A stretch of DNA of 49,705 nucleotides, the filler included, from Streblomastix strix (lineage: Eukaryota), in NCBI GenBank assembly GCA_008636045.1. It is 3 parts of 3 records of this genome, joined end to end, with 100 filler letters (N's around TTAATTAATTAA, not from the genome) between each part and the next. Parts side by side here need not be neighbours in the genome. Positions count along the whole stretch, not along the records: positions 16,610 to 33,113 come from SNRW01000800.1; 2 more parts are not named here. One strand, written 5' to 3'. This document shows positions 14,923 through 36,200 of this stretch, one piece after another; within the stretch, counting starts at the first letter, position 1, and each line of letters begins with the position of its first letter. The notes below the pieces were generated by a model. That model saw only the letters and a list, made by a program, of their open reading frames with translations. It searched no databases and was not told the DNA's origin. The translations under genes and the position numbers were made by a program.

Positions 14923-15838
14923 AGAAAATATAGTAATATGTTATGTATCTATTGCCAATCTAATAAAAAAATATTGGAATTAATCAAATTTTATATTTAA
15001 AAGTAGAGTATTTAACGAGGAAAATAAATAATTATTTTGTTGTTGTTTTCCAGCTAATTTAATTAATTAATTTAAATGTTTGTAAAGTTGTGGAAATTAT
15101 AAATTATTTTAAATAATAATTTATCGGTAAAAATAAATTTAATTTATTAAATATGAAGTTATATGATGAAGAGCATCTCAAATAAAAAAAAATTACGTAC
15201 AACTATTGAAATTCAAATTAATTATTTAGTATTAGCGAATATGTAATTTGTATATGTAAATTTATTGAAAATTTATTAATTTATTATAAGATCAAAGATT
15301 AATTCAAATTATTATTATAATTTTCAGAAATTGTTAAAATTATTATCAATTTTATCCAATTAAGTTTATTAGTATCATTTTCAATTTGAATTTTATTAAA
15401 TTTTACTATTTTAATATTTAATTAGAAATTAATATAAAAAAATTAAAAAGAAATAATTTATAAAGAAAATTTTGCCTTATTGATGTTATTCAATATCTGA
15501 CCTAAGATTTGTTCAGCTTTTTATTCATTCGTTTTGATTATTTGGAATCAATCTGCGATTTTGGATTAATTATTGATTATTCATAAATTTACGGTTTCAA
15601 TTTGAATTAAAATTATTGTTAAGGAGGAAAAATTTATGATTATTAATTATTTATTGATTTAGTAAACTTTATTTATGAAATAATTATTAAAGATTAAATT
15701 TAACAAATAGAAGATTTTATACCAACAAGAGGATTTTGTATTGTATTACGTTGTTATGATATGGTTTGTTTAAAATGAAAATAAGTTTATGATTTTTGTT
15801 GCAATGTTGATGATTAATTTGGTTATATATTAGTAGTA

Positions 15839-15971
15839 TAGTATGACGAAGTTGGAGGGAAGTTCAAAATCATTCATTTTCAAATCAATCTACCTTCGCT
15901 AAATGCAAAGTTGTAGCCCTTAATTTTGAAAATACGTGATTCTGAACTATCCCCCCAGATTCGTCATACTA
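15839..15971. repeat. ~133-bp imperfect palindrome (MITE-like or hairpin)
   Basis: Left arm TAGTATGACGAAGTTGGAGGGAAGTTCAAAATCA (15839-15872) matches the reverse complement of 15937-15971 (TAGTATGACGAATCTGGGGGGATAGTTCAGAATCA). Pairing continues inward (ATTTTCAAA/TTTGAAAAT, CTAC/GTAG). Confidence 0.8.
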
Positions 15972-16509
15972 AATATCGATTAGACCAATCATAAAGCATT
16001 ATTCCTTCACGCCGACAAAAGTTATTAATAAATATCATTAATATGAACTATTTAAAACAATTTGCATACATTAATCCACATGATTATCGAATATTCATTC
16101 GTTTATTCATTAATCCACAACAATAATGCGTATCATTGGTAAATATCACTAATCCACAGCGCTAATCCACATAATTAAGCTTAGTGTGCGGCTGTGGGGG
16201 AATATTCATATTCGTTTACAGATAAAACAAATGGTTATGATAAATGGTGTAAAGTAATTATACCGTTAATCCTTATGATTTTTTGGTGTTACTAATATAT
16301 TATTAAAAATAAATTAATGAGGGGTATCTCACTAATTAACGTTTAGTTAATTTGTAATTTTTAAATATGTTTCAATTATACATATTATGCTACGTACATT
16401 ATCTAACATAGAATATATATTTTATTACTATTTTTTCTTGTCATCCATATATTTGATCTCATTATTAAGTTGTTAATATTATTATTGTAATTTTGGCTCT
16501 AGTTGTTTA

Positions 16510-16609
16510 NNNNNNNNNNNNNNNNNNNNNNNNNNNNNNNNNNNNNNNNNNNNTTAATTAATTAANNNNNNNNNNNNNNNNNNNNNNNNNNNNNNNNNNN
16601 NNNNNNNNN
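16510..16609. other. Assembly gap (N run with a TTAATTAATTAA spacer)
   Basis: 100-nt block of Ns with a central TTAATTAATTAA, identical in design to 33114-33213. Confidence 0.97.
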
Positions 16610-16610
16610 T

Positions 16611-19600
16611 TGGACTGATTACTAAAGATAATAAGCCGAAGAAGCAAAACGAATAATGAATGAAGAACATGATTTGATGCTATTATAAGAGTCAAAGAAA
16701 TTTACAAAACCAGAGAATTTTAAAGAAATATAAGAGTATTTTATTCTTCCATTATATTTTACAAGCTAATAATAGAACAAAGAAATATATTAAAAAATTA
16801 GAAAAAATGCAGATGAAAACATAATATAAATTGAAAATGAGACAGAAACATTGTTATTATTTCCACCAATTGACAACGAAAAATTTGCATCAGAGGTTAG
16901 ATGTGCAAGGTTAGGGTTTTAACGTGAAAGAGAAACCACATCAGACGATGGCATAAGTCCAATATATTATGAAAATTACATAGATTCTTGGGAAAAAATA
17001 GATGAATTTGTTGATTCAATTTATAACAAATAATATCATAGAGCATTTAATATACTATTCAATTTTGGTATTTTAGTGGAAGAATTAGATCATGATAAAA
17101 ATGGTAATGAAATCGTAAGTTATAAACATTTATTGCCACGAGAAGCAAGAACCTAAACACATGCACCAAAGAATATATATTAACACATGACGACATAGAT
17201 GAATACAAACAATATATAAAGGCTGAGATTATTGACATATAAAATTACTATCTGGATAGTAGAAAAGAACGTCATATATCAATTTATTAGATGATGATTA
17301 AAATATATAAATTGTAAAAGGTAGTGTTTGGGTCAAGTATCAAAGAATTGATTTAAAAACACTGGGATGGACACAAGAAAGTTTTATAAAAAAATGATGG
17401 AGAAAATAATATGTGTAATATGGAAGCACTAGCCAGAGCATTAAATCATGATAGCATTAATAAGCGGATTAAATCAAATTCGATTATAATCATTAGCCGT
17501 TAGTATCTTGTTAAGGTTTTAGATCTACCATTCGATGCAAAAAGTAGATAAATGACTGAATTTTTAAAAACATTTGAAGGTTAAGACTTTATGAAATACT
17601 CCTAAATTATAACGCAAAAGTTTATGATTAATTAGAATATATACTTTTATGACGATGAGCACAAAGTTTATTATTTGGTTGATATAATTAAATATGTTGA
17701 TGAGGAACAGGACGAACAAGACGAGACGAATGGTTAAGACGACGAAGGAGTCGCCATCATTAATGTTTATGATTACTCAAGGCGGTTTGCTACGCAACCC
17801 ATATCCGTTGATATGCTAATCGTTCAGGAAGAAATTGACGGAAAATTAGCGCAACACGCATTTGCTATAGCTAATAAGGAAACGCTGACCGGATTAAAAT
17901 TTCTTCCATTTTGCAAGTCAAAAGGGTTTGATACTAAAAGCCCACACTTCCTAAGAGACTATGAAAAACATACTAAATAGTGCGAATAAAATGGTGGTAA
18001 AATAGTTAAAACTGTTTAATTGGATTAGATATAAAAACCGTTTTGCCCACATATCACATAAAACAAAACTTATTAATATCTTTAGGCACATAGAAGATAA
18101 AGAGAATTCAAGCCTAAATAATACTATATAACAAATGACTTGGAAACAGTGGAAAAAATTGTTAATATATAATTTGGAAAGTCAGGCAAATAGATATCCG
18201 AACTAGTGCCTTTATGTGTTGCTTCTACTATTAAAAATAAATAAGGTATTCACACTATATATTCTGATTTGCGAAATGGAGATGATTTTATAACATAATG
18301 GTTAAAGGAGGTGTTCAATGAGGCAGTAATCATATAGTAAGATAATCAATATTTCACAAAGGCTATGCCTAAAATGATGGAAAAAAACATACAATATAAC
18401 GTAGAGGTACCAGTAATTGGATTCAATAGTTCAAAGTTTAATTTTTCGCTAATATTCAGGAATTTATAATGTGCTGAATGGGAAATAAAAAGTTATATTG
18501 GTAGTTCAGGAGTAGCCAAGCAAATAGTTGTTTTACATAAGCACTTGGATGTCATACTTAAATTTATTGATGTGCTGACTTATTACGTACCAATTACTTT
18601 AAAAGAATTTGCACAAACTTTTAATTCTGAAATGAATGGTTAAAAAGGCGTATTTCCTTATGAATTTATAAACACTGATAACTATAAAAGAAATTTTAAA
18701 CTAATCAGAACCATTTCCAATTGAATCATTCAATTCAATACTGAAAAATACATCAATGAAATAAGAAGAATATGACTAATATGTTTAAGATGCAAAGTTA
18801 TTCAAAAACAGATGGGATTACCCTTAATATTATAACGAACAAGATACTAAAATAATGATAGAACCGATTGATGCTTTGATTCAAATGTATATGAAGTTTG
18901 ACATCGATATGTTTAGTTTTATGTCAATGGCAGCGTGATCAAATGCAACTAAATATGCACTAGCTTATAAAGAGTTTAATGTAAATGGTTTTTACCCTAA
19001 ACAAATTGATAAATCACCTAAATTTGTTTTATAATAAAAATATTGGAATAGAAAAGCATATTATTATAAAATGTAGGATTTGCAACAAAAAAAGTAATAC
19101 AACCAATAACGTTTATGAGTCAGATTTCGAATATTTCAAACATCTATTTCAAGACAATAAATGTGCGATTTGTGGCGATGAATTCACACTAAATAATATG
19201 CCAACATTGGATAGAATTGATAATAAAAAGGGTCATTCAAAGGATAATGTTTAACCGTGTTGTTTGTCTTGTAATACCTTTTGCTCTAATAAAGACAAAA
19301 ACATTCAAAAACTATTCATATAACTAAAGAGATTTTGCAGCTTCAACCACTTACCAACTAATTTAACAGACATAGAAATTTATAAACTAATCAGGTAAGG
19401 CATAACTGGTGGCTTGTCTAACGTGAAGCATCGGGTGAATATTGCAGGGAAAGATTTTATAAAGAAATTTTGGTATAATAAAGAGATAAAAACAGTAACC
19501 GTTTTAACATCTAACTATAGAATAACACATATAATAGGTATAGATTTCAACTTTTTATATCCAAGTGTCATGTCATCGGAACCTCACAAATTTAAAAAAT

Positions 19601-20904
19601 ATACCGGTGGCAAAATGTATATGCCTGGGTCTGTTATTGGTAAAATATTGAATAATTCCGAAGAAAATAAGCAAAAAATAATTAAAATAATTAATAACTA
19701 AAATAGATTTAATAGATGGGGGCAATTATTTATAGCAGAAATAAAGGGACATATTGATGAGAATTATTTGAATGATTTTATTAATTTCCCACCAATTTTA
19801 AGGAATTATGAGTTTATTACTAATGAAGAAACAATGGGCAAATACATGTAGGAGCATATGAAAAATAGTGGAATAAAAACTGATTAAAAATAGCGGAAAC
19901 TAACAAATTTGTTATCAACGACGGATGGCTACATGTCATTTTCAAGTTATTATTTATGGTTTTTGATTGATGACTGCCATTTTATAATTGATGATGTTAA
20001 GTAGTTGGTTTCGTTTGATAAGCATGATAAGTTCAATGGGTTTGTGAAAGAATTTACAAACCAAAGAATTTAGGCAAAAATTGAAAGACAAAAAGGACTA
20101 GAACAATTTTGTAAAATCAATATGAATAGCTCGTATGGAAGTGTTGGCATGAATACTGAGAAATGTACAAAGATAAAAATAATGGGTTAAATGCAAGCAT
20201 TACAAGCCCATTTATCTAACACTTTTATGGATGATTAGAAACTAGCCGATGATGTTAATGCTGTACAAATGAATCCAGAAACTTGCGCATGTAAAACTTC
20301 TTTACAAGTTGCTTATTTTGTACTAGACAATGCCAAGTATTGGTACCTAAATTTCATTTACAATTTCATGTATAAGTGTTTGGATATGGACAAGTTGCAT
20401 TTTGTAGAAGGAGATACTGATTCAGCATATTGGGCGGTCAGCGGTGATGAAGATGCCGGAATTAAACAATAATTTAAACATGTTATAAAAAATTAATAGT
20501 TTTATGACGAAAATGCCAAGTATTTTTTCCCGACGGTTGAAGGTGATTTGTTGGATGAGAAGAAAATTTTAGGGCTATCTGTAGAACGATAAGGTCCAGA
20601 AATCATAGCATTACCACCTAAAAACTATTATATGAAGGTAGATGATAAGGAAAAAATAAAATTAAAAGGTGTTAATCAAAATAATAATAAAATTGCTAAA
20701 GACTAAATAATGGATAATATAACCAATGGAACAATTACAAAATGCACAAATATGAGGCTTGGTTAAAAGAATTACCAAATGAGCAATTTAGCTACAGTAA
20801 AAAATGGTATTACGGGAATACACACAAAAATGGTGGTACTAAGTGATTAATCATGTTGTCCTTACGTATTTGGTTTGAAAGCAAGTGATTATATGGTCTA
20901 ATGA
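16611..20904 (+). pseudogene. Protein-primed family B DNA polymerase (pPolB), >1400 codons, 5' end in the gap; disrupted
   Basis: ExoI YITNDLET, ExoII IGFNSSKFN, KGVFPYEF and ExoIII YNEQD. Inserted Zn/endonuclease VII-like motif CAICG..TLDRIDNKKGHSKDNVQPCCLSCN. Pol A GIDFNFLYPS, pol B KINMNSSYG, pol C EGDTDS. Stop TGA at 20902-20904. Frameshifts at ~17180, ~18688 and ~19090; in-frame TGA at 18936-18938. Confidence 0.92.
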
Positions 20905-21069
20905 GCCAAAAATAAAAATCAAACCTTTTATTTATATGGCTAATTTAATAGTTTAAGGTATAAAATAAATCTCCAGTGAGTTGCCAGTTCCAAGTCTTTA
21001 CTAATAATTGCATCATTCAAAAATTATTCTATTTATTATACGGTTAACTATGACCAATGAATTTACAGT

Positions 21070-21288
21070 TCATTCTTTCTCATTTTTCTTTTACAAAAAA
21101 AATTATATAACATAAACCGTAATATTTAGTGGTACCAATACTATATCAAAATAGCCCCATAATTTTTTAATTAAATTAACGGCATCGGTTAATTGTTCAG
21201 GAATAGATACAGACAAAACAGATATAATAAAATTAACGCCATAAAATATGTAATTCATTAGACTCATAAACAAATTCAATAAGTTCAT
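21070..21288 (-). CDS. Small hydrophobic (possibly membrane) viral protein, ~72 aa
   Basis: Track ORF MNLLNLFMSLMNYIFYGVNFIISVLSV... extends through TAA=Gln to TGA at 21070. It is preceded by the element's TTTTTAAAAATAATAAAATG motif. Confidence 0.5.
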
Positions 21289-21306
21289 TTTATTATTTTT
21301 AAAAAC

Positions 21307-22323
21307 ATGACACTACATGAGATACAAAACATAACATTTTCAAACTAGGATTTACTAAACGAATATAAAACACGACCACTAACCAAAAACTCCTTATTCC
21401 TCGTTAATGGAAACCATTATATTGTTGGGGCTGTTGGTAGTGGTAAAACAACATTAATGTCCAAGCTAATTGTAATATACTAAAAAGTAATCAATCCTTA
21501 CATATTATACTTTTCAAATTTTGGTGCTGATGAGACAATGGCATTAAATCTTAACAGTAAAAACATATCATTAACCAATATTACATATGCGGAAGCAATG
21601 TTGTTTTTACCAGAATTTGATGAAATAAAATATTCAACAAAAGAAGTATATACTTGGTATAAATTGCATGAGTAAGGTTTCAAATATACTAGTGATTTTA
21701 TAAAAAGAGTCGAAGAAAAAATAATATAATAAAATGAAGCTAAAGACAACGAAAAACCAGATATATATTTAAAACGAATAGCTGATTTATTCAAGTAGTA
21801 TTTTATAGAAACCATTAATAAATATAGCTAGCCATTTAAAATATTACGTTTTGATATTCCAGCACTTATATAAAATATTAGCTATGAAAAGAAAATGAAA
21901 GTAATAGATGATAAACAAACAGCTGATATAAAAATATTGAAAATACCAGTACTTTTTAAGGCATAACTGTTAAATACACTAATGCTTTTTGATGAAATTG
22001 GAAGTAATACCGATATCCAACGTTTTAATTCTTCACTTGCTAAATCAATTGCCCATTTGGTTAGTGATTCAAGACATTCAAAAAATACGATATTTTTTAT
22101 AGCTTAACGTCCAATTTATTTGTTTAAGACTGCAAGGATATTATCCCATGTAATAGCTATAGTAGTTAATCTTGGAGAAAGTGATTTAAAACAAGTATAT
22201 AAAGAAAATACGATATAAAACCTTGACTTTGAAGAGGTTTTACTGTTGTATTCCACGTTATAAAAATATGAATTTATTATTTTAAACATGCTTTTCAGTA
22301 AGTATGAAATATTAAGAAATTGA
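21307..22323 (+). CDS. A32/FtsK-HerA-family genome-packaging ATPase (338 aa, intact)
   Basis: Walker A YIVGAVGSGKTT (~21418-21453), Walker B TLMLFDE (~21977-21997), and the A32-type motif DSRHSKNTIFFIAQRP. Open to TGA 22321-22323 with TAA/TAG = Gln. Absent from the supplied track. Confidence 0.9.
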
Positions 22324-22342
22324 TTATTTTGTAGGTAAATAA

Positions 22343-22690
22343 ATGTCTCCGAAATCACCATGTGATCCTTCGTCAATTCCTGAAGGAATGGTTTAATTGT
22401 GTGAATTAGCCACAAACATTGGCCTATAATATAATGCTATGGACTATGAAATTTTCAAAATATTTGAAGCGCTAATAGAAAATAATGATATGAACGTGCA
22501 AGAAAAATAAATGTATCAATAATATAAAAGCCAGTCTGCGATGCAGGCTTTCCGTAGGAAGTCCGTATGCGGATATTCCCAAGGGAATTATTCATTTCTC
22601 GATTCTTTGCAGGATAAAACAGTATAAATAATAGAATATATTTAATACCTCAATTTATTGATGCGGTTAAATTCATCTGATAATAATTGA
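22343..22690 (+). CDS. Hypothetical viral protein (115 aa)
   Basis: MSPKSPCDPSSIPEGMVQLCELATNIG... starts 19 nt after the ATPase stop and is open to TGA at 22688. Confidence 0.55.
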
Positions 22691-23105
22691 CCAAACCACT
22701 ATTTTATGTATCATTAACAAAGTCATTATATATTTATTTTTCCTGCTCATTAGCTTCAGATATAATGTACTTTTTTATTTATTATGGTTTGTTATTTTAA
22801 TCTAGTTGTTTTTTAATAAAATTATATTTATTTTTATAATATTTTTCTTACTCGTTGAACAGTTTATTTTTATAATCTTCCGCATCAACATACTGCTTTA
22901 TTTGTTGCAATTTGTTTTACTAATTCATGAACTACTTATTTATTCTTGTTAATTCTTAGAGTAATGGGTGCAGTATTATTTCTTTATCTTTTATTAACAA
23001 TTTTTGCAGTGCGTCAATTGTTGCCTTTATTGAATCATCACTTTCAAAATTTTATTTAATTACTTCATTAAACAATTATTTTATAGGGTCTTTGCATGAT
23101 GTCAT
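22650..23105 (-). CDS. Hypothetical viral coiled-coil protein (151 aa)
   Basis: MTSCKDPIKQLFNEVIKQNFESDDSIKATIDALQK... open to TGA at 22650. Upstream motif TTTATTTTTAAATAAATG. Confidence 0.65.
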
Positions 23106-23180
23106 TTATTTAAAAATAAATAACAATTTTTAGTAAAGTAGTCCAATAATTAATGAGTGCATTAGCATGAATGAAATGAA

Positions 23181-25190
23181 TCATGGAGGCACCGACCCCA
23201 AAGTAATAGGTTTAGCACGCCAATATACTTTTGCCCCATCGCTATAAATCCCCCTTCTGTGCCTACACTATTTACACCCCATAAAATCGGATTCCCTGCT
23301 GAATAATTAACTGACCCATTTGTTGCTCCATTAGTTGCCCCATTAGTTGCTCCTGTGCCAGCTATAACTGACCCATTAAATGTTAAAGTATTTCCATCGG
23401 CACTTATACGTAATCCTCTATTTACGTTATTATAATCAGATGATAACGATATCGCAAGACCAAATGGGAAAATATTAGATGATGCAGGTGAATAAATTTA
23501 CGATTAATGATCTACCATTCCTGTTGTCTATGTCTTATCACATCCAAATATGACAGAACAACCCACATTACTATCCTCACATCTTGCTATTCTTAATCCA
23601 TCCGCAAATGATACAGAATTAGGATTAATTTGTACAATACCATTTTATGTGAATGGGGCATTATTTATTGTTTCAGTATTATATTATAAATTTGGCATTA
23701 AATCTTCTTTTGTTGTAAAATCACTTGGTAAAGTATCCTCAAGTTAATTAGTAAGCATGTTAGATACTACAGGAGACCCATTTTTTGTATAGCTTAATAA
23801 ATCAATTCTTCCCTCACTACCTTAATAATTTCCAACAGTCATCCATAAATCTCCATATTTACTTAAACCTGTCCCATAATATAACATAGTTGGTAGTCTA
23901 AATGATGTATTAGCTGTTTATTATAAATAGTGATAAATTATTGCTTTTAGTCCTGTAGTATCATAAGTAACATGCAACTTTAGATCATTAAAATTACTTC
24001 TAGAATAAAATTTAAATTCTACATTAGAATCTCCAAAACTAGTATATGCTTCAAATCTATATAATTTTATATATTTTGCTGTTGCCCCAACATCTTATGA
24101 AAAACTTTAAGATTTAATAATGTTTTTGTTTGTTGTATCACCATTAGCGCAAAGTATTTCCGTAGCCAATCCTCCAGTCTTAATAAATTTTGAATCTCTA
24201 ATGTTTCCATCATTTGTTAATTACTATGGATGGACATGGTCATTTCTACTATAAAAATCACTTTTACCATTAGTCGCAGCAGTAGCATTTACTAACGGAA
24301 CATTTGCAGTTGTTGGATCAACATTTAGTGGGTGCTAATGTGTGGCACTAGCATATATATTAGCCGTGCCTGCTGTTCCTGTTCCTGTATCTTTTAGTGG
24401 CACATCATTACTTAGATTTACATGATACGTATGGTCAGACCTGGCATAAGTAGTAGCAACTCCTGCCTCACCATTTGCAGTATCTTTTGTAGGTAAAATA
24501 GTTGATACTTATAAAGGATGTTAATGGTCTCCTCTTGCATATTCATTACTTGTTCCAGCACTTCCATTTACGATAGAGTTTGATGGAATCGAATCACTGG
24601 CAGGGGTTACCTAATCAGGGACCACATCGCCACTATTATACCAATCAGCCGCAGGCGGGTTCCTTGTCATCTCATACATCCATACTGTTCCACTTTCTGC
24701 ACTAAATGCAAAATCACCACTAGCCGAATTAGGCAAATTTTATATGGTACTATTTAATATATAATATCCACGGAAATGTATTTATCTCGCAAGTTCTTAC
24801 TAAATAGTTAACATATCATTTTTTTAATCCATCAATATCTTACTCTACCCCTCCAATTGATGACTACAACTAGTTTACTTCATTAATTAACTGGTTAATT
24901 TATGCAACAAAATCAAAGTTTATTACTTTTAAATTCTTTATTGTCAGCAGTCCATTTGGTGCAATTTTGAGTGCATAATCAGCAGCATAACCATCAACTA
25001 TTTAATTATTAGCTGCATATACTAGTGCATTGTCACTATCTATAAATAGTTAATATTCATCATTTTGCAAAATTCCACAGCTAGAGCTACCCCTTTTCTA
25101 ATACTATATATAATATGCTATATCATTAGTGATAAGCTGGCGAACTGTTCGGATTTGTTGCTGTGTTAATGGATTATTTAAGGTAATCAT
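23181..25190 (-). pseudogene. Fibre/spike-like structural protein (~670 aa) with four His-containing repeats; two single-base frameshifts
   Basis: MITLNNPLTQQQIRTVRQ, coiled coil, then repeats YARGDHQHP / YARSDHTYH / YASATHQHP / YSRNDHVHP, KFIKTGGLATEILCANGDT, and a G/N/T-rich C-terminus RGLRISADGNTLTFNG...YWRAKPITLGSVPP-TGA. Frameshifts in the T7 run 24819-24825 and at ~23247. Confidence 0.7.
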
Positions 25191-25240
25191 TTTAATTTTA
25201 TAAAAATAAAAAGTTTAAATGTTATTAATGGATATGGTTA

Positions 25241-25447
25241 TCAACGTTTATTTACGAGTCGATCCTCAGCTCCTGTAAGATTAGCCCCAGCACCTAATGC
25301 CCCATCAATTCCTGGGTGTATCATTCCTACAGGGCCTGATATTGTTGATAGTACTTTATGAAGAGTTGGTGCTACCCATTAAGTAGCATGTTTAATACCT
25401 CCCAAAATTTTACTTCCAATGTTTGCTATACCACTGAAAAATCCCAT
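25241..25447 (-). CDS. 68-aa Gly-rich amphipathic peptide with Met-Gly start (candidate membrane-penetration virion protein)
   Basis: MGFFSGIANIGSKILGGIKHATQWVAPTLHKVLSTISGPVGMIHPGIDGALGAGANLTGAEDRLVNKR-TGA; intact and head-to-head with the capsid-sized ORF. Confidence 0.7.
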
Positions 25448-25471
25448 TTATTTATTTTTAAAAATATTAAA

Positions 25472-27452
25472 ATGTCGTTCTCAGCATCTGACTACCTTTA
25501 AAGACTATCAAAAATGCAACACTCCGATAATATTAGTAGATACGTGCAACTTGGTGAGGTGTTAAAAACAGTATCAATTCATGCCTAATCCTTCGCAACT
25601 TCTAAGCAATAATTTTTTTAACTAGACAGTAAATTAGCTTACTTCATCAGGTGTTAGATATACACGTGCGCCGTTGGCTGCAAGAGGAACAGCAACTTGT
25701 TCAATGGTATAAACCTGCTAAGTAAATTGGACTATAACAATCCCTGCAAATATATTAGCCGTTTAATTAAATAGGTGCGAAGTTTTAGGAGCTGATGCTG
25801 ACAACTTAAATGCAAGAGTTAATTATAAAGCAAAAGCTAACCTTATTACACCAAAAGACAAAAATATGAAATAAGGGAATTAATTTTATTATGGTAAAGC
25901 TGCTGATGGTCCAGAAAATAGCGAAGATTTGAAGTTTTGGCTTGGTTTCTCCACAGTTCGCGGACCATTTAATTAGTTTGCAATATTACGAGATGCTTAG
26001 AACTTATGGAATACAGCAATATATGCGAGAGAGTAAGCAGTTATTTGTTCAAATTCATTAACAGATTTATGCACTAATAATTCCGTCAGTGTCTCACCAC
26101 TCGAAAGTATCATTGCATGCAAACGTCATTGTGGTGTATTTATTGATATACCACTTAGTGAAATAGATTAAGCAGCAGGAGGAGCTACCCCATATTTTTA
26201 TCTGATACCACATGATATAACTTTTAGCGGTGTATTAGATTTGAAACAATTAAACCCAATTTTTAACTCATTCCCAGTACTAACAAGAAACTATGCGTCA
26301 TTATACTTATAGCTATGGGTGTAAGATTTCCTTTAAGATTTAAAAATTGTATGGCTAAATAAATCAGATATTATGGGAAATAATCATCTAGCATATGCAA
26401 TGAATCCACCAGAGAAATCAGACGTTGTTTATCTTTTAAGTAGATTAGATGATGCAGACCCACTAATTTATTCAGCGTTTAATGTTAGGCTCGTTAATAT
26501 GTAAAATGTTGCAAATGATGCAAAACTACCATAAAATTCCATTAGTTAAATATCAGATGCTAAATTTGAAGAGTTAGAAATATAAAATGTATGTTTTAAT
26601 ATAGAAAATGAAGAGGCAATTATTCAGATTATAATTGCATAAAGAATAATAAATTTCCCTACACAAATCATAAGGTCCTAATCTTCAAATTTTCCCTTCA
26701 GTGGTTTTTAGGCTGTTTCTGGTAGTATGTAAAGTATAATGTTATTTGCTAATGTAAAGCACTATTCATGACATTTGCCATGCCACAATATCCTACTTGG
26801 TTTTTCCCTATACTATTTTATAACTTTAATTTGGTTGTTGATTAAAAGAATTTAATACCATAACTGTATAAAGCACTGACCCAAGCAACTAATAGCTAAA
26901 TGTTTGATTGTTTCGTTGATTAAGATGTTGTAAGTGCCCCATCAGACCTATACCATTCGCTTACTTTTGAAAATATAAACACTAAATGATAAAGATGATT
27001 TTTATGGACATGTTGATGCTGGAAGTGATTTAAAAAGCAATGCAAATATATTTTATTATACTACATTATTCAATGGAAGCAAAGCTACAAAAACATTATA
27101 CCCAAATAAATATATGCTGGCATGTAATATGGCAACTGATGACTCATTTATGTGAGGTTATAACTCTTCAAAAATTGGTGCTAGATCTAATATATAAGTG
27201 ATTTTTAACGGAAATTTGACCAAAGGTATTGTAGATACAATGCAACTAAATCCATCATAGAATTAGAATGATTTTAAGCAATTTATTGGTATGCATAGCT
27301 ATCCGGATCCACACCAGGTCGCACTAACACCTATCATGCACTATTTATGTGTAGCATTTATTCGTATAACTTTTGATGACAACCCAGATCCATAAGTATT
27401 AAGCATGGATGTTATAGGAGAGATAGGCGGGTCATCAATTAGAAGCGGTTGA
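25472..27452 (+). pseudogene. Probable major capsid protein (~660 codons), disrupted
   Basis: MSFSASDYLQRLSK...FWLGFST..GPFNQFAI..LWNTAIYAREQAVI...DLKQLNPIFNSFPVLTRNYASLYLQLW...IGEIGGSSIRSG-TGA (27450-27452). Frameshifts at ~25616, ~26757 and ~26985; in-frame TGA at 27153-27155. Capsid identity is inferred from size, beta-rich composition and context, not from a recognised motif. Confidence 0.55.
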
Positions 27453-27453
27453 G

Positions 27454-27477
27454 TAAGGACACCGTAAGGGGTCCCTA
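27454..27477. terminator. GC-rich hairpin between convergent viral genes
   Basis: TAAGGACACC-GTAA-GGGGTCCCTA directly after the capsid-ORF stop. The terminator role is inferred. Confidence 0.4.
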
Positions 27478-27515
27478 ATGATTAATGGGTAAAAATAATT
27501 GCAATAATTGGTTTA

Positions 27516-27891
27516 TCATTATTTTTGTTTATTAATCATGGCGGTCTGCTTTGCAGCCCTGGTTCATCCATATATTGAATTCCTAACCTCTTCACTAATA
27601 TCTTCGCTATCCATTTTTATCTATGCAATTATTAATATAGAACTAAGCAAATTATTACAAGCTATAACCATTAATGATATACTAGTAATTATTTCCAAAA
27701 CCATTTATATAAAATTAAAACTAAATTTTTCACCGGCAAATTTTCGATTCGCAAACATACTTTATTGCTGCATCCCAAATAATTTTAAAGATTGCATGCC
27801 AATTTATATTTTATTACTCAAACGAATAATTGATGTACTACGTGCTAATGCTTTCATTAAATCCTTTGCTTGCTAGACCTAAGGGCTCCAT
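27516..27891 (-). pseudogene. Hypothetical viral protein (~125 codons) with a hydrophobic segment; degraded
   Basis: ATG at 27891 preceded by TTTTAAAAATAAATAA. The best frame (QVQQAKDLMKALARSTSIIRL...VLEIITSISLMVIACNNLLSSILII) needs a frameshift near the start and has an in-frame TGA at 27564-27566. Confidence 0.4.
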
Positions 27892-27909
27892 TTATTTATT
27901 TTTAAAATG

Positions 27910-28672
27910 TTAAGCTGATTAATTATGAATAGCATAAGAATCGCAAAACTACACGCAAAAGTCATCAGGTAAATGAAGCTAGCACATCATATTAATTACT
28001 ACGTTACCATTTGGATTAATAAAACAATCTATAGGAATGGATCCGGTCCAATCTATTGGATAATCTAATACCTTTTACGCAAACATAACAGCATTAATGG
28101 GAATGTTATGCGGGGTACCTGAAAATTTTGACTTTATGGCGTTATTTATAATTGAAAACATAGTAAATCCAGATTCCGTTAATGCGTTAGGATCTGAATG
28201 AGTTATTTACAACGATATATATACTCGACTATTTTACGTTGTTAATGTTCCCCAAATTAAATGTTCATACATTCCATAAGCAATTGATTAGTACGTAGCA
28301 TTTTAAATAGGTTCATAGTCTAATTTGTCTTTATCTATCGTATCACCATTAGCTAGTAAAATTTGATTACTTGCACCATTATTTTTAACGAATTTTTCAG
28401 CAACAATATGCTGTAAAAAAGTCTTTACTCCATTAATCACCTGATTAGTACGTAAATTTACATAATCAATTGAATTTCTGAAAAATTAACTTAAATAATT
28501 GAAGTATTTTATAATATCGTTATCCACTATTTATAAAAGAGTATTTTTTTATCTAGTTTAATTTTGCAATTTTTCCTGTATTTTTTTTTTATAGTCTTTT
28601 TTGCTATTATTACTGGGTTATCAAATCATCCTCATCTAACAATGTTAAATCGCTAATTGGTTAATCGTTCAT
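27910..28672 (-). pseudogene. Second, shorter fibre-like or minor structural protein (~250 aa)
   Basis: MNDQPISDLTLLDEDDL..(frameshift in T10 run 28581-28590)..YVNLRTNQVINGVKTF..KFVKNNGASNQILLANGDT..DCFINPNGNV..DSYAIHN. Shares the KFxKxxG...IL.ANGDT motif with the large fibre. The 3' end is uncertain (next in-frame TGA at 27730). Confidence 0.6.
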
Positions 28673-28696
28673 TTTATAATTCAAAAATAAATCTTA

Positions 28697-29266
28697 TCAT
28701 TCGTAATTTCCATTTCGTAGTTTATCAAGATATATTTTAATACGTTTATTTTTAATGTCATACACCCATATGTATTAGTATTATTATTATTTTTAGGTAA
28801 TAACATGTAATTTTCGAAACTTAAGACCATTATGATAATACACATTAAAATCTTAGTCAAAACTATATCCTTCTAAATCGTGCGCATTATATAAATCTAG
28901 TCATTAACTACCTACTGGTAATTCATCAAAATATTCAAATGGCCCTCCGTCATAACCAGATAAATTTTTCATATTATCTGCCGTAGAAACCCAACGCAAA
29001 TTTTCAAGTCGATTATCAGTTTTAATATGATTTTTATGATCAATGTCAGGTAAGTTATCGGGATTTGGTAAGAATTAATTAGCTAAAACACGATGATATT
29101 AATAATCTATAGAGTTTAATTTAATACGATTATATCCGCTTTTTTTAATAAACAATATTTTTGGTATAAATCCATTTGAAATTCTTCGAATAATATATGG
29201 TTCTACATTCAAAATTTAATAATCTTCATCAACAACTAACCGAATAAAGACATTAATTTCTTCCAT
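28697..29266 (-). pseudogene. HNH homing endonuclease (HNH_3-type); C-terminal part frameshifted
   Basis: YHRVLANQFLPNPDNLPDIDHKNHIKTDNRLENLRWVSTADN. First in-frame TGA at 28901-28903; coding-like sequence continues in shifted frames to a TGA at 28697. Confidence 0.85.
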
Positions 29267-29320
29267 TTTTATAATAGATTAAAAAAAATAATAAAAAAAT
29301 AAATAAGGATAAAATAATTT

Positions 29321-29980
29321 TCAAAAATCATTTTCTGTTATTTCCATCTCTGGTGCTTCGTTTATACGGATGAAGTCGCAATTTACTCGATAAAGTTTTT
29401 CAATAGAATTATATAGCACATTATCCAATACTTTTACAGATAAATTTTTTATTAAAATATCTTATACTCTAATAAGGTCCTTTTTCTTGAGTTTCTTTAA
29501 TATGCAAGTATGCGGTTATATAATTGCTTCCTCAAGCATTATTTCAACATCATTTTCATCATTCTGCGTGATGAGTGCCCAGAATTTTATTAAATTATTA
29601 GATGAAAAAACAAAATCATCTCCTCGTTATCTGTGGGTAATGGTGCGCCAAATAACATCGATCACAAACTTTTATACCATGAGATTAGGATGTGATAGGT
29701 ATATACTTTTTGGTTATTCTTCTGCTAGCTATTAAATTGCCTCTTCTGGTAATACTTATGCGGTTGTTCTATCAACCTCCTAATGCTTATTTATGTTATA
29801 TTTTTTATGCGGTATGTTTTCATTCTAATTTTCAAAAGGTTTTTATTGTGCTGTTTCTTAGTCTGTTGGCATTATTTTTATACGATTAATTTCCTTATCA
29901 ATTAGTTAGAGTCTAATTTTATCCTCATCAATAAGATCTATTTTCTTGATATCCGACATTTATTTTTTACTTTTCGACAT
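29321..29980 (-). CDS. Hypothetical viral protein (219 aa)
   Basis: MSKSKKQMSDIKKIDLIDEDKIRLQLIDKEINRI... open to TGA at 29321 with TAA/TAG = Gln. Confidence 0.7.
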
Positions 29981-30037
29981 TCTTACTTAGTTTCTTTCAA
30001 CACCCTTTATCATTTTATTAATTTTTAAAATATTAAA

Positions 30038-30733
30038 ATGGAATTATCGCATGCTCTTAAGAATTTGATAGAAAACGGAACAAATATTGAATACTTTGAT
30101 AAGGGTTATGTCGCATAGATTAACAAATAAATAAAAATATATGAGGATTGCAAAAAGCAACTGCGAAAATTGACATAAACATAATAAAATATGCTATTGC
30201 TATAAGCTCGTGGAGGTGAAGAAATAAAGAAAAAACCATCAAAATAAATAGTTTAAAAATAGATTGTGGATGATGAAGAAGATTTTATAAATTATGAAAA
30301 ATAGGAGAAAAGACACAGAGATATACAGGAAGATATGAATGAAAGCGATGATGAAACGATTAGCTAAAGCGAAAGACCCGAAAATAGGACATAGTCCTTT
30401 GAGAGAATCGAAAGACCAATAAAACATTTCCGTGAGGCTAAACAACCACATAAAAAAGTTATAAAAGCATTAAAATAGCCATAAATCAACTATACTAATC
30501 CATAAATAGATTTGGAAGAATTAATACGTTTAAGAACTGAAAATAATTTCAAAAAGTAATAGCATTAAGACGCTATAAAATAAATAGAGAAATACAAGCA
30601 AAAAATAAAACGTTATAAGTAACCAAAATAAGACATTGAAAAATAAGAAGCCCCGGAAATTTAACAGAAATAACCACAACAGATTTATAAACATGAACAA
30701 CCACAATTTAGCGAATATGATTTATATAATTGA
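30038..30733 (+). CDS. Hypothetical viral charged/coiled-coil protein (231 aa)
   Basis: MELSHALKNLIENGTNIEYFDKGYVAQINKQIK... open to TGA 30731-30733. Upstream motif TTTTTAAAATATTAAAATG. Confidence 0.7.
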
Positions 30734-30784
30734 AAGAATTATTCTAATTTAAACAATTATTTAATTATTTTAATTATATTAAAA

Positions 30785-31350
30785 ATGGACTACCTGGACG
30801 ACATGGAGTATCATTAATAGTATTGGTAAAACGAAGAGAAAAAACTAATAAAAGAATAAAAATACTGGGACAGAATAATTTTAAAAAATTGTAACCAAGA
30901 ATAAAACGACTGAGAGATTTAACGTATAATTTGTGAGTTAAAATATGCGCGTAAAATATTAAGTGAATTAGATAAAGCCATGGCAATGAAAACAAATATT
31001 ATCAATATAGACGAATAGGGTAAAATAGGCTCTATTGGTAATATTCCATGGAATAATTTACATAAATTTTAGCTATCAGATAATTAACTACTTTTAACAA
31101 TGAAACAACAGAAGGATTACGAAGAAAAAATAAAAACTCTTAACGGTGATGAACTTTTTAATTATATTAATGAAATGCGAACGCTTACCTAGAAGTACAA
31201 CAAAATACGTAATGAGCATGTAGAACAAGAAAAATAACGCAAACGTTAATGGCTAGAAGAAATTGATGAAGAAATAAAACAATCAAAATAACGCTTACGT
31301 TAATAGCTAGAAGAAGCCAATGATTGTTTTTTTTGGAGTTGTTTGATGAA
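30785..31350 (+). pseudogene. Hypothetical viral coiled-coil protein with an internal TGA; 3' end approximate
   Basis: MDYLDDMEYHQQYWQNEEKK...; in-frame TGA at 30911-30913, after which the same frame continues as EIQRIICELKYARKIL...EQEKQRKRQWLEEID. Confidence 0.5.
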
Positions 31351-31480
31351 AACTTATTATTTTTATTATAACATTTATTATATATAAAATTATTTTATCC
31401 CAATTATATAAGCCATTCATCAAGAAAAAAATTTTGTCGTATTGGCGGCTCGACTAGCCTTTTTTTTGACAATTTTTTAC

Positions 31481-31507
31481 CCGGAACACCTGGAACACCT
31501 GGAACGG
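31481..31507. repeat. Three tandem 9-bp GGAAC-containing repeats
   Basis: CCGGAACAC CTGGAACAC CTGGAACGG; a GC-rich island just past the last viral ORF. Confidence 0.8.
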
Positions 31508-31732
31508 TCCGTGGCTATGGCATTTTTTGTTAAAACTCCATGCTAAAATTATTATATAAATTATATGTATCCATTATTTGTTGTTATATATTATTATAAA
31601 TTTATGTGGGGACTTTTTGGAGATATTTTTTTAAAAACCATTTTTTAACTGTTATTTATTTATTTTAATTATTTTATATAAGGGGTTCATATTCATTATT
31701 TATTATAAGTCTCCGACATTTTTTAACAAAAA

Positions 31733-31982
31733 AGTAGTGTATAATGGTTATTTATGCAATAACTTCAAAAGGTATTAGTATTTATAAAAAACCACGCAAG
31801 TTATTTTTTTTTGATTGATGGTTTAACAAATACAATAATATTTTCGAACAAAGGCGTTAGCAAGCTGTGAGAAAATTTTATAAATTTGAAGGCCAAAAAT
31901 CTTAAAAAATGAAGGAGTGGAGATTTTTTATAAAACTGAACACTTTTTGAAGTTGGGGCATAAATCACCGTTATATACTACT
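31733..31982. repeat. 250-bp unit bounded by ~60-bp imperfect inverted repeats with AGTAGT...ACTACT ends
   Basis: 31733-31791 AGTAGTGTATAATGGTTATTTATGCAATAACTTCAAAAGGTATTAGTATTTATAAAAAA versus the reverse complement of 31924-31982 AGTAGTATATAACGGTGATTTATGCCCCAACTTCAAAAAGTGTTCAGTTTTATAAAAAA. Confidence 0.8.
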
Positions 31983-32659
31983 AGTATCAATGAACTCTTT
32001 CAAATTTTTATTTGTATAATTATTTAAAAATAACATTAATTATGACTACTATTATTTAAAAGCATTCCTACGTGATATATACTTAATTTATTTTTTCTTG
32101 CAAAAAAATCATTTATTTTGTTTTATATATATGTATGTAAAGTATTTTTTTGTATTATCATACCATTTCGTCAGAATGAGAAAATGATCAAATGCTGACG
32201 AAGAAATTCACTGATTATTTAAAAAACGCATTTAATACGTTTTTCTCACCGTATAATGTATATTTTGCGTCAGTCTTAACAATATTCTTTATCATAGTTC
32301 ATTATTATTCTTAATTATCTAATTTATTAATAATAATTATTGTTGAACTGATTAAAAAAGCAAATATTACTTCAATTTCAATAATTAAATGATTTACCTT
32401 TTTGAAAAGCATAATCATCATATTAATGAAAATAACAATAGATGCAATTTTGATAAAATACAAGAACATATATTATAAATCGTTTATATTCTAATTCTAT
32501 CAATTACATAATAATTATCATAATCATTATAATTCAAACAACTTTTTTTTCTTCATAGAATACATTAATTCCTTCACTTGCAATAATAAAAAAAGTTAAT
32601 GATTGTAAAGTAGAAAGAAAAAATAACAAAGATTTAATCAAGAAACAGAGAAAACCATC

Positions 32660-32880
32660 TCACTATTGTTATATTGGATTGTTATTTGATTAAATTTCTT
32701 TTTCTTCTTTATAAATTTTATATTTATTTATTATTTTGATTATTAATAATCTTCAACCTTATAAACAGAAGAAAGAATCTAAAATATTTTATCATTTGCA
32801 AATCCATTAACTATTTCATCTGCAAACCACATTTCTAATCTACTGGTTAATACAGAATTTGTTCAAATTCATTATTTGCC
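32660..32880 (-). CDS. Probable 3'-terminal exon of an unidentified host gene (remainder upstream or in the gap)
   Basis: VLTSRLEMWFADEIVNGFANDKIFQILSSVYKVEDYQQ...QQQ-TGA at 32660, preceded by an intron-like AT-rich tract ending in AG. No ABC motifs. Confidence 0.35.
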
Positions 32881-33113
32881 TTTTTAATTTTTAAAATTTT
32901 TAATATAAAATAACTAATAATATCATAAAACTCGAAATAAGTTAGATAGATAATTAACAAGCAGCAATCAACCAATTATCCAAAAATTGGATTCAAACTT
33001 TCAAAATATTTTTATTTATACTAATCAGCAAAGTATTATTTATCAATTTTTCAGATTAATTTATATAAAAATAATTATTACTTGCCAAATTTAATAAATA
33101 TTTAAATAATTTA

Positions 33114-33213
33114 NNNNNNNNNNNNNNNNNNNNNNNNNNNNNNNNNNNNNNNNNNNNTTAATTAATTAANNNNNNNNNNNNNNNNNNNNNNNNNNNNNNN
33201 NNNNNNNNNNNNN
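33114..33213. other. Assembly gap (N run with a TTAATTAATTAA spacer)
   Basis: 100-nt N block, same design as 16510-16609. Confidence 0.97.
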
Positions 33214-33249: not shown

Positions 33250-36200
33250 CTCAAATAAAGTTGGATCTTGTGGAGTTGTAGCAATATTCGATCTTAATGT
33301 AGTGACTCCCATATCTCTTTATATGTCTCTGCCATCAATAAGAATGTATGATGGTTTGTATTATTATGATGAAGATGAAGATTATTAATTATTATCTTAT
33401 ATTTATTCATTTTCTTCATCTTTTGGGTTTCTTTCAGCTTCAACTAATCTAAGCAATGTTAATAATATCGTAGATTTACCTGATCCTGTTCTTCCAACTA
33501 TACCAACCTATAATAAACAATATCATATAATAGTAAATAAACAATATATTAATATCTTCAATATATTATTATTAGTTATAATAACCTTACTCCCTCCTTT
33601 AATGTGAATATCAACATGGTCAAGCACACGTTATAGACCTTCTCTGTATCTGACACAAACATTACTAAATTATATGTCACCTTTAGAAGGCCAATTCTTG
33701 TACACTGTAAAAGAAGGAGTAATTTTCTTATTTTTCTATTTCTTTGATTTGGGTTTATTTTATTTCTTTGGTTTTGAAGCAGATTTTCTTTTTGTGTTTT
33801 GACTGAGCAATTATCTGTCATTTTCATTTCCTTATTCTTCTCTTTCTTTCTCTTCTCTTTCTTCTTTCTCTTTCTCTCTTTATTTATATTCATAATCTTT
33901 CTCTTCCTATTCAATATCATATATTTCTCTTAATTTCTCAACTGATGCCATTTCATTCTCAAGAAATGATGTCATTCTTATTAAATGTCCAATATTACTA
34001 ATGGTTCCTTATGAAAGAGATAAAGCTAATCCAAAATTGGACATTTTAGCAACTGATGAGTAATAATTGAGTATAAATATTATTAAAATATATTAAATTA
34101 ATAAATGATTTCATATTTTTATATTTAAATTAATAAATACCTCCACCAATCCCTTTAATCATGGTTCCAACAATTCCAATCACAAACATCATTCCAGCTG
34201 CTATTATTTCTAAAAATAATGACTAAAATCTACTTAATGATAATTATATAAATGAAGCTGATAAAGATATATTTAAATAATCATCGTGTGATCTAATGAA
34301 ATATGACTTAATAATGGAAAATAATATACAATGATAAAAAAATGATGTGAATATATATGATTATTAAAAATTACCATTTCTGACATAATTTATTATTTTA
34401 TTCACATTTTTATATTATTGTATTTACTAAACCTATTTATCAAATGCTCTTATTGTTTAAGCGCCAGACAAACATTACTACAAATTATGGATAATCAGAG
34501 TTCTTGTTAATGAAAAGAATCTAATTAAAATAGAAAGAAGGAAATAAGAAATTAAAAACGAAAGAAAATGATAATAAAATAAAATAAATAATTATATTTA
34601 CCTTCTAACATTAAGCATGGCTTTAGACAACTTATTTTATATAACAATGAATAATAACATCATTGGAAGCAGTGGAAGTGCTAACCACGGCATTGATATT
34701 ACTGTTCCTACAATAATGAATAAGTGAAAATTAAAAGAATAAAAGATTATTAAAGGAATAAAATATACCTGCAAATGATACAATAACAATAAAGAAGTTG
34801 GTAACAAAGTTTATAAGATGAACTGGAATTGCTTCATCAGCTGCCTACAATTAAATAAATAGGAAAAATAAATTAAAATAATATTTCAATAAATTTTCCT
34901 TCAATTTATCAATAATTAATCGTTAATATGTAATACTTATTAATCTTTGGATATTCTATTTAATAATCTTCCAGTTGGTGTAATATCAAAGAATTATATT
35001 GGAGCATTTAAAATCTTCTTAATTACTTTAGATCCAATGTTCTTTGCAGCTTATTAGCTTGCCTTCAATTATATGGAAGAAAATAAATTTAAATATAAAA
35101 TAAAATAAAATATTGCATTTTATTATTATTAAATATATTATTAATTTTTATACTTTTAATAATAATAAATTTCTTGGAAATATTAGTACTAATGAGACAA
35201 TACTCAGTACGAAGAAGAATAAGAAATATTAATATTATGAGATAGAAGTCTATAATATTGGAGAAGGCAGAGAATTAGAAGAATAAAATAATGTTCGAAT
35301 TGTTGATGATATGAAGATGAAACTTGGAATCAAAATCTTTCTCATTAATTTCTCATATGGTCTTTAATTCCTATATTCATATTCTAATTAGCATCAACAT
35401 ATATTAGTTCTTTCTTTATCAATATCTTCTTTATCTTCTTCTCCATTATCATTAGCCCACCATCCTAATACATACTGACTTCCAACTTTAGTTCCTTCAC
35501 TCAATAAGAAAATCAATATAACAGTTATTATTAAGAAATACTTTGCATTCTTAATATAGAATAAATATATTGATAATGAAACATGACCTTATGTTGTATC
35601 TTCAGCCGATGTGAGTTTTCCTTTTTGTTATTGTTGTTATTATGATGTTAATTAATAATCATTATTATTTTCTTATTACTCTTTGATCTATTTCTTTTAT
35701 TTAATTTCATATGATTTAATATTATTATCTTCTAGATTCTATTTCAATTTATCATTATATGTCTTATCTCCTTTCATTTTACCTTCTTAATCAATTTCAT
35801 TTCCAATATATTCACCAACTCTATCAACAAATAGAGAAGGTGGACCTGAGAAATATAAATAATATGAATTGGAGAGTAAATATATGAATGAATGAAATAT
35901 AATTAAATAATAATAATTTTTTACTTAATTTAGTTTTAATTATATAGTCTGTACCTTCCATCTCAATGTTTCCTTTTGAGTCTAATGAAATAACATAATC
36001 AAAGAAGTGCATATATTTTGTATGGTGAGTTGCCATTATTATTAATTTCTATTTGTTTATCTGATTATCAGAAGAAGGAAATTGTGTTGGTGAAGGAGAA
36101 GTGGATGGAGTTGAATAATTAGATGAATCATATGATGGAGACGAATGAGATTAAATATTAGACTGAATTGTATTGTTTATTTTCTCTATTTTCTCATTTT

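What the first reader, a model, noticed from the sequence alone, without database searches (positions are those of the whole stretch)
25241..25447. Small Met-Gly amphipathic peptide next to the capsid gene: candidate membrane-lytic entry protein
Seen: an intact 68-aa ORF MGFFSGIANIGSKILGGIKHATQWV... with i/i+3/i+4 hydrophobic spacing, Gly and Lys, lying between the fibre and capsid genes. Established: adenovirus protein VI has an N-terminal amphipathic lytic helix of similar character, and Gly2 is required for N-myristoylation. Inference: an internal virion protein for endosome penetration, which would indicate an infectious particle rather than a pure transposon.
Basis: partly seen in the sequence, partly recalled or inferred. 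Interest (0 to 1): 0.7.

Follow-up and report, generated by a model that had tools for sequence, protein, structure and literature searches.

The report
Protist virus's conserved amphipathic capsid-side peptide
A tiny gene sits head-to-head with the capsid gene of a DNA virus integrated many times in a gut protist's genome; it is kept by selection and encodes a predicted detergent-like helix that likely rides inside the particle and would help it break a membrane on entry, although the fatty-acid tag proposed for it is unlikely.

Summary
The ORF is real, but only in the TAA/TAG=Gln code (codon 23 is TAA). It belongs to a large family in multi-copy Polinton-type endogenous viruses; nearly all named relatives are labelled Streblomastix strix. 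It is under purifying selection: 25 of 37 listed DNA variants are synonymous against 25% expected. It is as conserved as the capsid protein and stays beside it. A relative of that neighbour folds like a double jelly-roll capsid. Residues 2-37 form a predicted cationic, nearly acid-free amphipathic helix across the family. Myristoylation is unlikely: Phe3 in 97 of 101 and Ser/Thr/Cys6 in 1 of 101 Gly2 members. No homology to adenovirus protein VI was found; it has no propeptide, and no protease was seen in the element. Best reading (about 50%): an internal virion membrane-active peptide, working like pVI or the adintovirus 'Cupiennin/Macc' proteins by analogy. Virion location and lysis are untested. 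As assembled, this copy's capsid, fibre-like and polymerase genes are frame-broken, and the capsid and ATPase genes, not the peptide, carry the 'virus rather than transposon' argument, which is already in print.

The parts
25241..25447 (-). 68-aa small protein gene (table 6): predicted amphipathic helix 3-35, Pro/Gly hinge, Gly/Ala-rich helix 44-66, basic C-terminus
25445..25474 (.). 30-bp head-to-head start cassette: ATG of the small gene and ATG of the capsid gene, 24 A/T-only bases apart
   Evidence: (family D20)
25472..27452 (+). Major capsid protein gene, predicted double jelly-roll; three frame switches in this copy near 25615, 26760 and 26985
23102..25190 (-). Fibre-like gene: N-terminal segment, predicted coiled coil, four ~31-aa repeats; split into 124-aa and 593-aa frames near 24820 in this copy, read through in relatives
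   Evidence: 'fibre' inferred from anatomy, no significant database hit
21307..22323 (+). P-loop ATPase, likely the A32/FtsK-type packaging ATPase (family inferred from context)
   Evidence: Walker A motif at 21427; weak AAA/P-loop Pfam rows below cut-off
16611..20904 (+). Family B DNA polymerase gene in several frames, with an internal endonuclease VII/HNH-like domain; runs into an assembly gap on the left
   Evidence: PHROG DNA polymerase E 6.4e-08 and endonuclease VII E 4.9e-14; DTDS motif at 20413; gap
30011..30040 (.). Second head-to-head start cassette, 26 of 30 bases identical to the first, between two unknown genes of the element
28901..29266 (-). HNH endonuclease gene of the element
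   Evidence: Pfam HNH_3 E 3.9e-10

Best explanation
This is a real, selected gene of the capsid module of a multi-copy Polinton-type endogenous virus of a protist, and its product is likely an internal virion peptide whose predicted N-terminal amphipathic helix would be released during entry to rupture the host's endosomal or phagosomal membrane. Shown: the gene, its conservation, purifying selection, its fixed place head-to-head with the capsid gene. Predicted: helix-hinge-helix shape with a 36-residue cationic amphipathic first helix, and the neighbour's double jelly-roll fold. Inferred: shared expression with the capsid gene through the 24-bp spacer; packaging under the capsid with the hydrophobic face shielded; release and surface (carpet or toroidal) membrane disruption. 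Because the helix starts at residue 2, it would need no protease maturation, and Phe3/Phe4 rather than a myristate would anchor it.
For: Family: 67 of 67 candidates matched at 51-93% identity, 66 labelled Streblomastix strix; 230 hits of 4,673 candidates with a wider profile, 120 listed. Selection: 25 of 37 listed single-base variants synonymous against 0.25 expected, P 8e-08, or 0.28 with transitions weighted, P 9e-07. Linkage: 21 of 120 capsid locus tags lie next to one of 154 small-gene tags, random mean 0.67, maximum 5 in 5,000 draws; 49 of 87 gene models join the small gene to the fibre-side or capsid-side DNA. As conserved as the capsid: mean identity 0.65 against 0.62 over 19 pairs. Helix: moment at least 0.45 in 61 of 67 members; period peak 99.5 degrees, mean 4.3 Lys/Arg, no acidic residue in 2-37 in 83 of 112; AlphaFold helices 3-35 and 44-66 for a relative; best 19-residue hydropathy only about 1.0, so not a plain transmembrane anchor. 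Neighbour: the top 15 structural rows are all double jelly-roll capsid or scaffold proteins, as are all 25 Foldseek rows listed. A distant relative in a standard-code contig keeps the helix and also faces a divergent gene (L001). Precedent in print for membrane-active genes in virion modules of related viruses.
Against: No test of membrane activity or virion location was possible. No sequence link to protein VI, Cupiennin or any lytic family: Pfam blank, best PDB row E 0.38, and the wider profile prefers designed coiled coils and phage tape-measure proteins (E 0.0006-0.003), which shows that such helices are generic and can be structural. An amphipathic helix can as well pack on a protein surface or an inner membrane. 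The moment (0.57) and charge (+2 for residues 2-19 in this copy) are moderate. The peptide model is low-confidence as a fold (mean pLDDT 68.8, pTM 0.27). The capsid model is weak (pLDDT 55.5; best Z 7.7, rmsd 5.5 over 274 residues; no Foldseek E under 0.001). Variants come from related copies and are not independent, and 45 weaker rows were not shown. No particle of these elements has been reported in the passages read.
Confidence: 0.5

Rival explanations
1. It is a structural minor virion protein (inner cement, scaffold, size ruler or anchor to an internal lipid layer); its hydrophobic face packs on the capsid protein or on an inner membrane and it does not lyse host membranes.
For: Conserved as tightly as the capsid protein over its whole length, hinge and second helix included. 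Eleven-residue spacing of hydrophobic positions (3, 4, 7, 10, then 14, 15, 18, 21, then 25, 29, 32) and weak matches of distant relatives to tape-measure proteins. Head-to-head linkage fits any stoichiometric capsid partner.
Against: The polar face is Gly/Ser/Asn/Lys with almost no acidic residues, which suits lipid better than a specific protein interface (inference). The two roles are not exclusive: protein VI does both (PMC8310329 passages).
Confidence: 0.25
2. It is a non-structural late lysis or egress peptide (viroporin or holin-like) that permeabilises the nuclear or plasma membrane to let progeny out, or kills the cell on induction.
For: Same helix anatomy. A preprint reports many predicted pore-forming genes in these viruses and suggests egress or abortive infection (10.64898/2026.10.13.758929, passages).
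Against: No hydrophobic segment strong enough for a holin-type membrane span. The 24-bp spacer ties it to the capsid gene, and unshielded expression at capsid level would be expected to harm the producer early (inference).
Confidence: 0.15
3. It is an antimicrobial-peptide-like product aimed at bacteria around the host or at a co-infecting virus, kept because it benefits the host.
For: Composition resembles antimicrobial peptides; single members give sub-threshold Pfam rows for PSM-beta, uperin and a frog peptide family (1 of 68 each, E 0.09-0.34).
Against: No signal peptide or prodomain is apparent in the sequence; it co-diverges with the capsid gene (rho 0.67) and decays with the rest of each copy instead of being kept on its own.
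Confidence: 0.05
4. It is not a functional gene: an open frame that hitch-hikes in a spacer or promoter region of the element.
For: It is short, and no RNA run could be examined.
Against: 25 of 37 variants at third codon positions in this frame; GC of 0.55/0.49/0.17 at codon positions 1/2/3; length 68-69 aa in 53 of 68 members; conservative exchanges between subfamilies down to about 50% identity.
Confidence: 0.02

Closest known systems
Metamonada-group Maverick-Polinton/PLV endogenous viruses (Bellas et al. 2023, PMC10120064; passages)
   Same: Same kind of element: S. strix endogenous viruses in the TAA/TAG=Gln code with a double jelly-roll capsid gene. The window's element has capsid, PolB and ATPase genes.
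   Different: The main text has no occurrence of 'amphipathic' or 'membrane', so this gene is not discussed there; its supplements were not opened. No integrase, protease or terminal repeat pair was found in the part of the element held here.
Adintovirus 'Cupiennin' and the 'Macc' class of hypothetical membrane-active capsid core proteins (Starrett 2021 PMC8502044; Buck 2024 10.1101/2024.03.25.586562; Welch 2020 10.1101/341131; passages)
   Same: A predicted membrane-active gene in the virion module of a Polinton-type virus; adomavirus LO6, clustered with Cupiennin, was found in virions and antagonised capsid particle formation when over-expressed.
   Different: Those are animal viruses with an adenain protease; the class is called polyphyletic by its authors. 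No sequence of Cupiennin was available to compare (the supplement search gave only map labels), so homology is untested.
Adenovirus protein VI (review PMC8310329, passages)
   Same: N-terminal amphipathic helix; proposed binding to a double jelly-roll capsid protein and release on entry.
   Different: Protein VI is a precursor cut at two sites by the viral protease, with nuclear transport signals, a protease-activating tail and a PPxY motif. The 68-aa protein starts with its helix, has no PPxY, and matches no protein VI model or chain.
Mavirus major capsid C-terminal fragment (PMC6048507, passages)
   Same: A predicted amphipathic helix proposed for endosome rupture in a protist-infecting double jelly-roll virus.
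   Different: There it is a protease-released part of the capsid protein; here it is a separate gene on the opposite strand.
Nodavirus gamma peptide (44-aa chain 1nov_D)
   Same: Top PDB row for the family profile; a short capsid-borne peptide whose lytic role is recalled, not from a call.
   Different: E 0.38, not significant; RNA virus, autocatalytically cleaved from the coat protein (recalled). Analogy only.

Membership tests
Adenovirus protein VI | Sequence homology to protein VI (Pfam model or PDB chains) | tested here: not met
   No protein VI row for any of 68 members in Pfam at E up to 1 or for two family profiles against PDB sequences at E up to 10. A short local resemblance I recall could not be tested with a tool-given sequence.
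Adenovirus protein VI | N-terminal amphipathic helix | tested here: met
   (prediction only).
Adenovirus protein VI | Precursor cut by a viral cysteine protease to free the helix | tested here: not met
   The helix begins at residue 2-3, leaving no propeptide. An adenain-like site at residue 14 occurs in 63 of 112 members but lies inside the helix and is missing from three divergent relatives. No protease found in 14500-33120, though the element's left end is lost in a gap.
Adenovirus protein VI | Binds the capsid protein trimer inside the virion | not testable with these tools
Adenovirus protein VI | Lyses membranes | not testable with these tools
   Needs a bench assay.
N-myristoylated proteins | Gly at position 2 | tested here: met
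   101 of 112 full-length members; not in the group starting Met-Leu-Gly.
N-myristoylated proteins | Compatible residues 3-7 (no large aromatic at 3; small, preferably Ser, at 6; Lys favoured at 7) | tested here: not met
   Phe3 in 97 of 101, Ser/Thr/Cys6 in 1 of 101, Lys7 in 1 of 101; 4 of 112 pass a PROSITE-type pattern. The pattern is recalled; reliance on Ser6-Lys7 is stated for human NMT and Gly-Lys peptides in 10.1101/2021.06.22.449375 (passages). The host enzyme's preference is unknown.
Macc class (hypothetical membrane-active capsid core proteins) | Encoded in the virion module of a midsize linear DNA virus | tested here: met
Macc class (hypothetical membrane-active capsid core proteins) | Predicted membrane-active structure | tested here: met
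   Cationic amphipathic helix; prediction only.
Adintovirus Cupiennin proteins | Sequence or profile similarity to the Cupiennin genes | tested here: inconclusive
   No sequences were obtainable; no such family among the Pfam rows or the 90 hits of the all-protein search, which carry no names.
Polinton/PLV-type element | Double jelly-roll major capsid protein | tested here: met
   On a full-length relative (P0227). Scores are individually modest but unanimous in fold class.
Polinton/PLV-type element | Family B polymerase and packaging ATPase | tested here: met
   the ATPase family is inferred from context.
Polinton/PLV-type element | Integrase and terminal inverted repeats | tested here: inconclusive
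   None found; the left end runs into an assembly gap.

The most novel reading that the evidence does not exclude
Gut-protist Polinton-type viruses have boiled the entry machine down to a free-standing, ready-made 68-residue lytic peptide with no propeptide, no protease and no lipid tag, made in step with the capsid protein from a 24-bp bidirectional start cassette; the family spans at least two host genetic codes and would be the first entry factor identified for the Metamonada group, implying these elements spread between cells as particles.
Probability: 0.25. Interest if true: 0.7.

Novelty: new member of a known kind. Interest (0 to 1): 0.42.

Why it matters
How Polinton-type viruses of protists enter cells is open, and for the metamonad group even the capsid gene was recognised only in 2023. 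A 68-residue candidate that can be synthesised makes the entry question testable in a liposome assay without culturing the host. Its selection signal also shows that the capsid module stayed functional while the subfamilies diverged to about 50-60% identity. The idea of such a protein is not new: analogous genes are already proposed for adintoviruses, adomaviruses and mavirus.

Tried and rejected
No whole genome is held for this window, so copies were studied through database proteins and public contigs; a codon-alignment dN/dS was not possible. No RNA holder was listed, so expression was not examined. The protein atlas gave no result for the small protein; for the neighbour gene in L001 it returned no usable hit. 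Scans for related loci found nothing in viral contigs or, with the close-family profile, in metagenome contigs; only L001 was recovered; a scan of prokaryote genomes could not be set up. The gene facing the relative in L001 could not be identified as a capsid gene; that it looks like one is my recollection only. The peptide model matched nothing in the viral structure library. The capsid family matched no Pfam capsid model, DUF4106 included, in 52 members. The Nodamura gamma-peptide row (E 0.38) and the antimicrobial-peptide Pfam rows were rejected as evidence of homology. Co-divergence with the capsid gene was not taken as evidence of binding, since adjacent genes are inherited together. Six of the 87 new hits did not map to the window: two short ones (P0146, P0150) were kept as possible relatives, four long repetitive proteins were dropped as generic helix matches. 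Five look-ups of earlier scan findings returned nothing. Two paper searches returned no paper and one paper was not held.

Full report
Observation. The window is read in the TAA/TAG=Gln code: only 4 ORFs of 100 aa or more exist under the standard code, against long, recognisable frames under table 6. The ORF at 25241-25447 (minus) gives the quoted 68 residues with one TAA at codon 23. Residues 2-19 have a hydrophobic moment of 0.57, reached by 42 of 20,000 shuffles; allowing for the choice of window, 32 of 3,000 whole-protein shuffles reach it. Among 341 ATG ORFs of 50 aa or more in the window, 4 reach this moment and only this one also starts Met-Gly.

Setting. The gene lies in a stretch of about 15 kb that holds a family B polymerase with an internal endonuclease domain, a P-loop ATPase, a repeat-bearing fibre-like gene, the capsid gene and an HNH endonuclease. 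The stretch starts at an assembly gap at 16510-16609 and ends before a second gap near 33114. No terminal repeat pair, integrase or protease was found. The capsid call was tested: the largest frame found 288 relatives among 4,027 candidates, 120 listed, all labelled Streblomastix strix. A full-length one was folded (mean pLDDT 55.5). All 25 Foldseek rows listed are double jelly-roll capsids, best E 0.003, and the first 15 rows of the wide structural search are double jelly-roll capsid or scaffold proteins, best Z 7.7, rmsd 5.5 over 274 residues. No single score is strong; the unanimity carries the call. Bellas et al. 2023 (PMC10120064; passages only) already list S. strix elements in this code in their Metamonada capsid group.

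Family and linkage. The peptide found 67 clusters of 67 candidates at 51-93% identity, 66 labelled S. strix and one from an unnamed metagenome. A wider profile found 230 of 4,673 candidates; of the 120 listed, 114 are S. strix and 6 unnamed; 110 were not shown. Using locus-tag numbers, 21 of 120 capsid genes are next to one of 154 small genes, against 0.67 at random. Of 87 new proteins from the all-protein search (90 hits), 49 are gene models that join the small gene to the DNA on its fibre side, capsid side or both, 32 match the small gene only and 6 do not map. I read these joins as gene-prediction artefacts that reveal gene order, not as true fusions (inference).

Selection. Contigs of four public runs (at most three samples) were laid on the gene. 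Of 37 distinct single-base differences listed inside the ORF, 25 are synonymous, against an expected share of 0.25 (P 8e-08) or 0.28 with transitions weighted threefold (P 9e-07); 25 fall on third codon positions. Of the 12 others, 5 come from one contig around an indel and 4 are places where the window alone differs from nearly all contigs. Limits: withheld 45 weaker rows over its 501 bases, and related copies are not independent. At protein level, 19 of the 21 adjacent pairs were compared (two with aberrant small-gene models left out): mean identity 0.65 for the peptide and 0.62 for the capsid protein over 171 comparisons, rank correlation 0.67, 0 of 5,000 permutations as high (an earlier set of 15 pairs gave 0.68 and 0.65 over 92 of 105 comparisons). 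The gene is therefore as constrained as the capsid gene.

Anatomy. AlphaFold on a relative gives helix 3-35, a Pro/Gly hinge and helix 44-66 (mean pLDDT 68.8, pTM 0.27). Over 112 full-length members the hydrophobicity of residues 2-37 peaks at 99.5 degrees, with a mean of 4.3 Lys/Arg and no acidic residue in 83 of 112. Lys13, Lys31 and Lys19 flank the hydrophobic face. The best 19-residue hydropathy is 0.8-1.5 in 8 proteins tested, below a usual membrane span (threshold recalled). This is the build of surface-acting membrane peptides (established knowledge), but not unique to them: the wider profile also picks up designed coiled coils and tape-measure proteins.

Myristoylation. Gly2 is present in 101 of 112, but Phe3 in 97 of those 101, Gly or Lys at 6 in 95, Ser/Thr/Cys at 6 in 1 and Lys at 7 in 1; 4 of 112 pass a PROSITE-type pattern, which I recalled. 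A preprint on human NMT states reliance on Gly2 and Ser6-Lys7 for Gly-Lys peptides (passages); passages of PMC7048800 did not settle residue preferences. One distant group starts Met-Leu-Gly. Myristoylation is unlikely but not excluded, since the host enzyme is uncharacterised.

Beyond Streblomastix. Four unnamed metagenome proteins scored E 1.7e-05 to 5e-04. Two of them share a further C-terminal motif (32% identity). The contig of one (L001, 1,066 bases, standard code) shows the gene at 494-826, an ORF diverging from position 405, 88 bases away, and another starting 28 bases downstream. The layout mirrors the window, but seven tests failed to identify the divergent ORF. At these E-values and with a generic helix, homology of the distant proteins is probable, not certain.

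State of this copy. As assembled, the capsid gene switches frame three times, the fibre-like gene is split where relatives read through and the polymerase lies in several frames. Bellas et al. warn that such breaks are often short-read assembly errors, so decay is likely but not proven. Many database members of the small gene also carry scattered radical changes.

Mechanism. Most likely (0.5) the peptide is made with the capsid protein, held inside the particle with its hydrophobic face shielded, and released on uptake to break the vacuole membrane. Gene, selection and linkage are shown; helix and capsid fold are predicted; packaging, release and lysis are inferred from precedent. Rivals: a purely structural inner protein (0.25), an egress or lysis peptide (0.15), a host-serving antimicrobial (0.05), no function (0.02).

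Comparison with what is known. It may work like adenovirus protein VI (review passages) but is not a member: no sequence match, no propeptide, no PPxY, no protease seen. Mavirus has a proposed capsid-derived helix for the same job. Searches for a description of this gene found none: Streblomastix with Polinton gave one paper, Polinton with protein VI and amphipathic gave one, and searches listed nothing on it; the library lacks most subscription journals.

Verdict. A real and previously unnamed gene family, a good and easily testable candidate for a membrane-active virion peptide, within a known kind of element and with conceptual precedent. Interest 0.42.

Noticed in passing
window 25445-25474 and 30011-30040: Two divergent gene pairs share a 30-bp CAT-24 bases-ATG cassette (26 of 30 identical; next best 20 of 30 among the other 21 such sites). 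With 24 bases between start codons, promoters must be minimal or lie inside the opposite gene.
   Followed up: partly
window 19080-19280 within 18943-20904: An endonuclease VII/HNH-like domain sits inside the family B polymerase frame, ahead of the polymerase motifs (PHROG E 4.9e-14). I recall such fusions in some Polinton polymerases.
   Followed up: no
window 31733-31982: A 59-nt imperfect inverted repeat, 80% complementary with 132 nt between arms, near the probable right end of the element; possibly an element terminus.
   Followed up: no
window 27730-28620 (minus): A second gene with weak similarity to part of the fibre-like gene's relatives (tblastn E 1.5e-04 to 4e-04 near 28280-28420); a possible second fibre or minor capsid gene.
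   Followed up: no
window 16510-16609 and about 33114-33213: Both flanks carry the same N-run, short palindrome, N-run pattern, an assembly gap marker, so the joins to the flanking DNA are scaffold joins.
   Followed up: yes
window 33500-37000 (minus): Intron-containing host gene that by eye looks like an ABC-C type transporter (recalled motifs, Pfam on one exon gave nothing above cut-off).
   Followed up: no
L001 1-405 (minus) and 494-826 (plus): A distant relative of the peptide in a standard-code contig faces an unidentified divergent ORF; it and a second distant group share a C-terminal motif absent from the Streblomastix proteins.
   Followed up: partly
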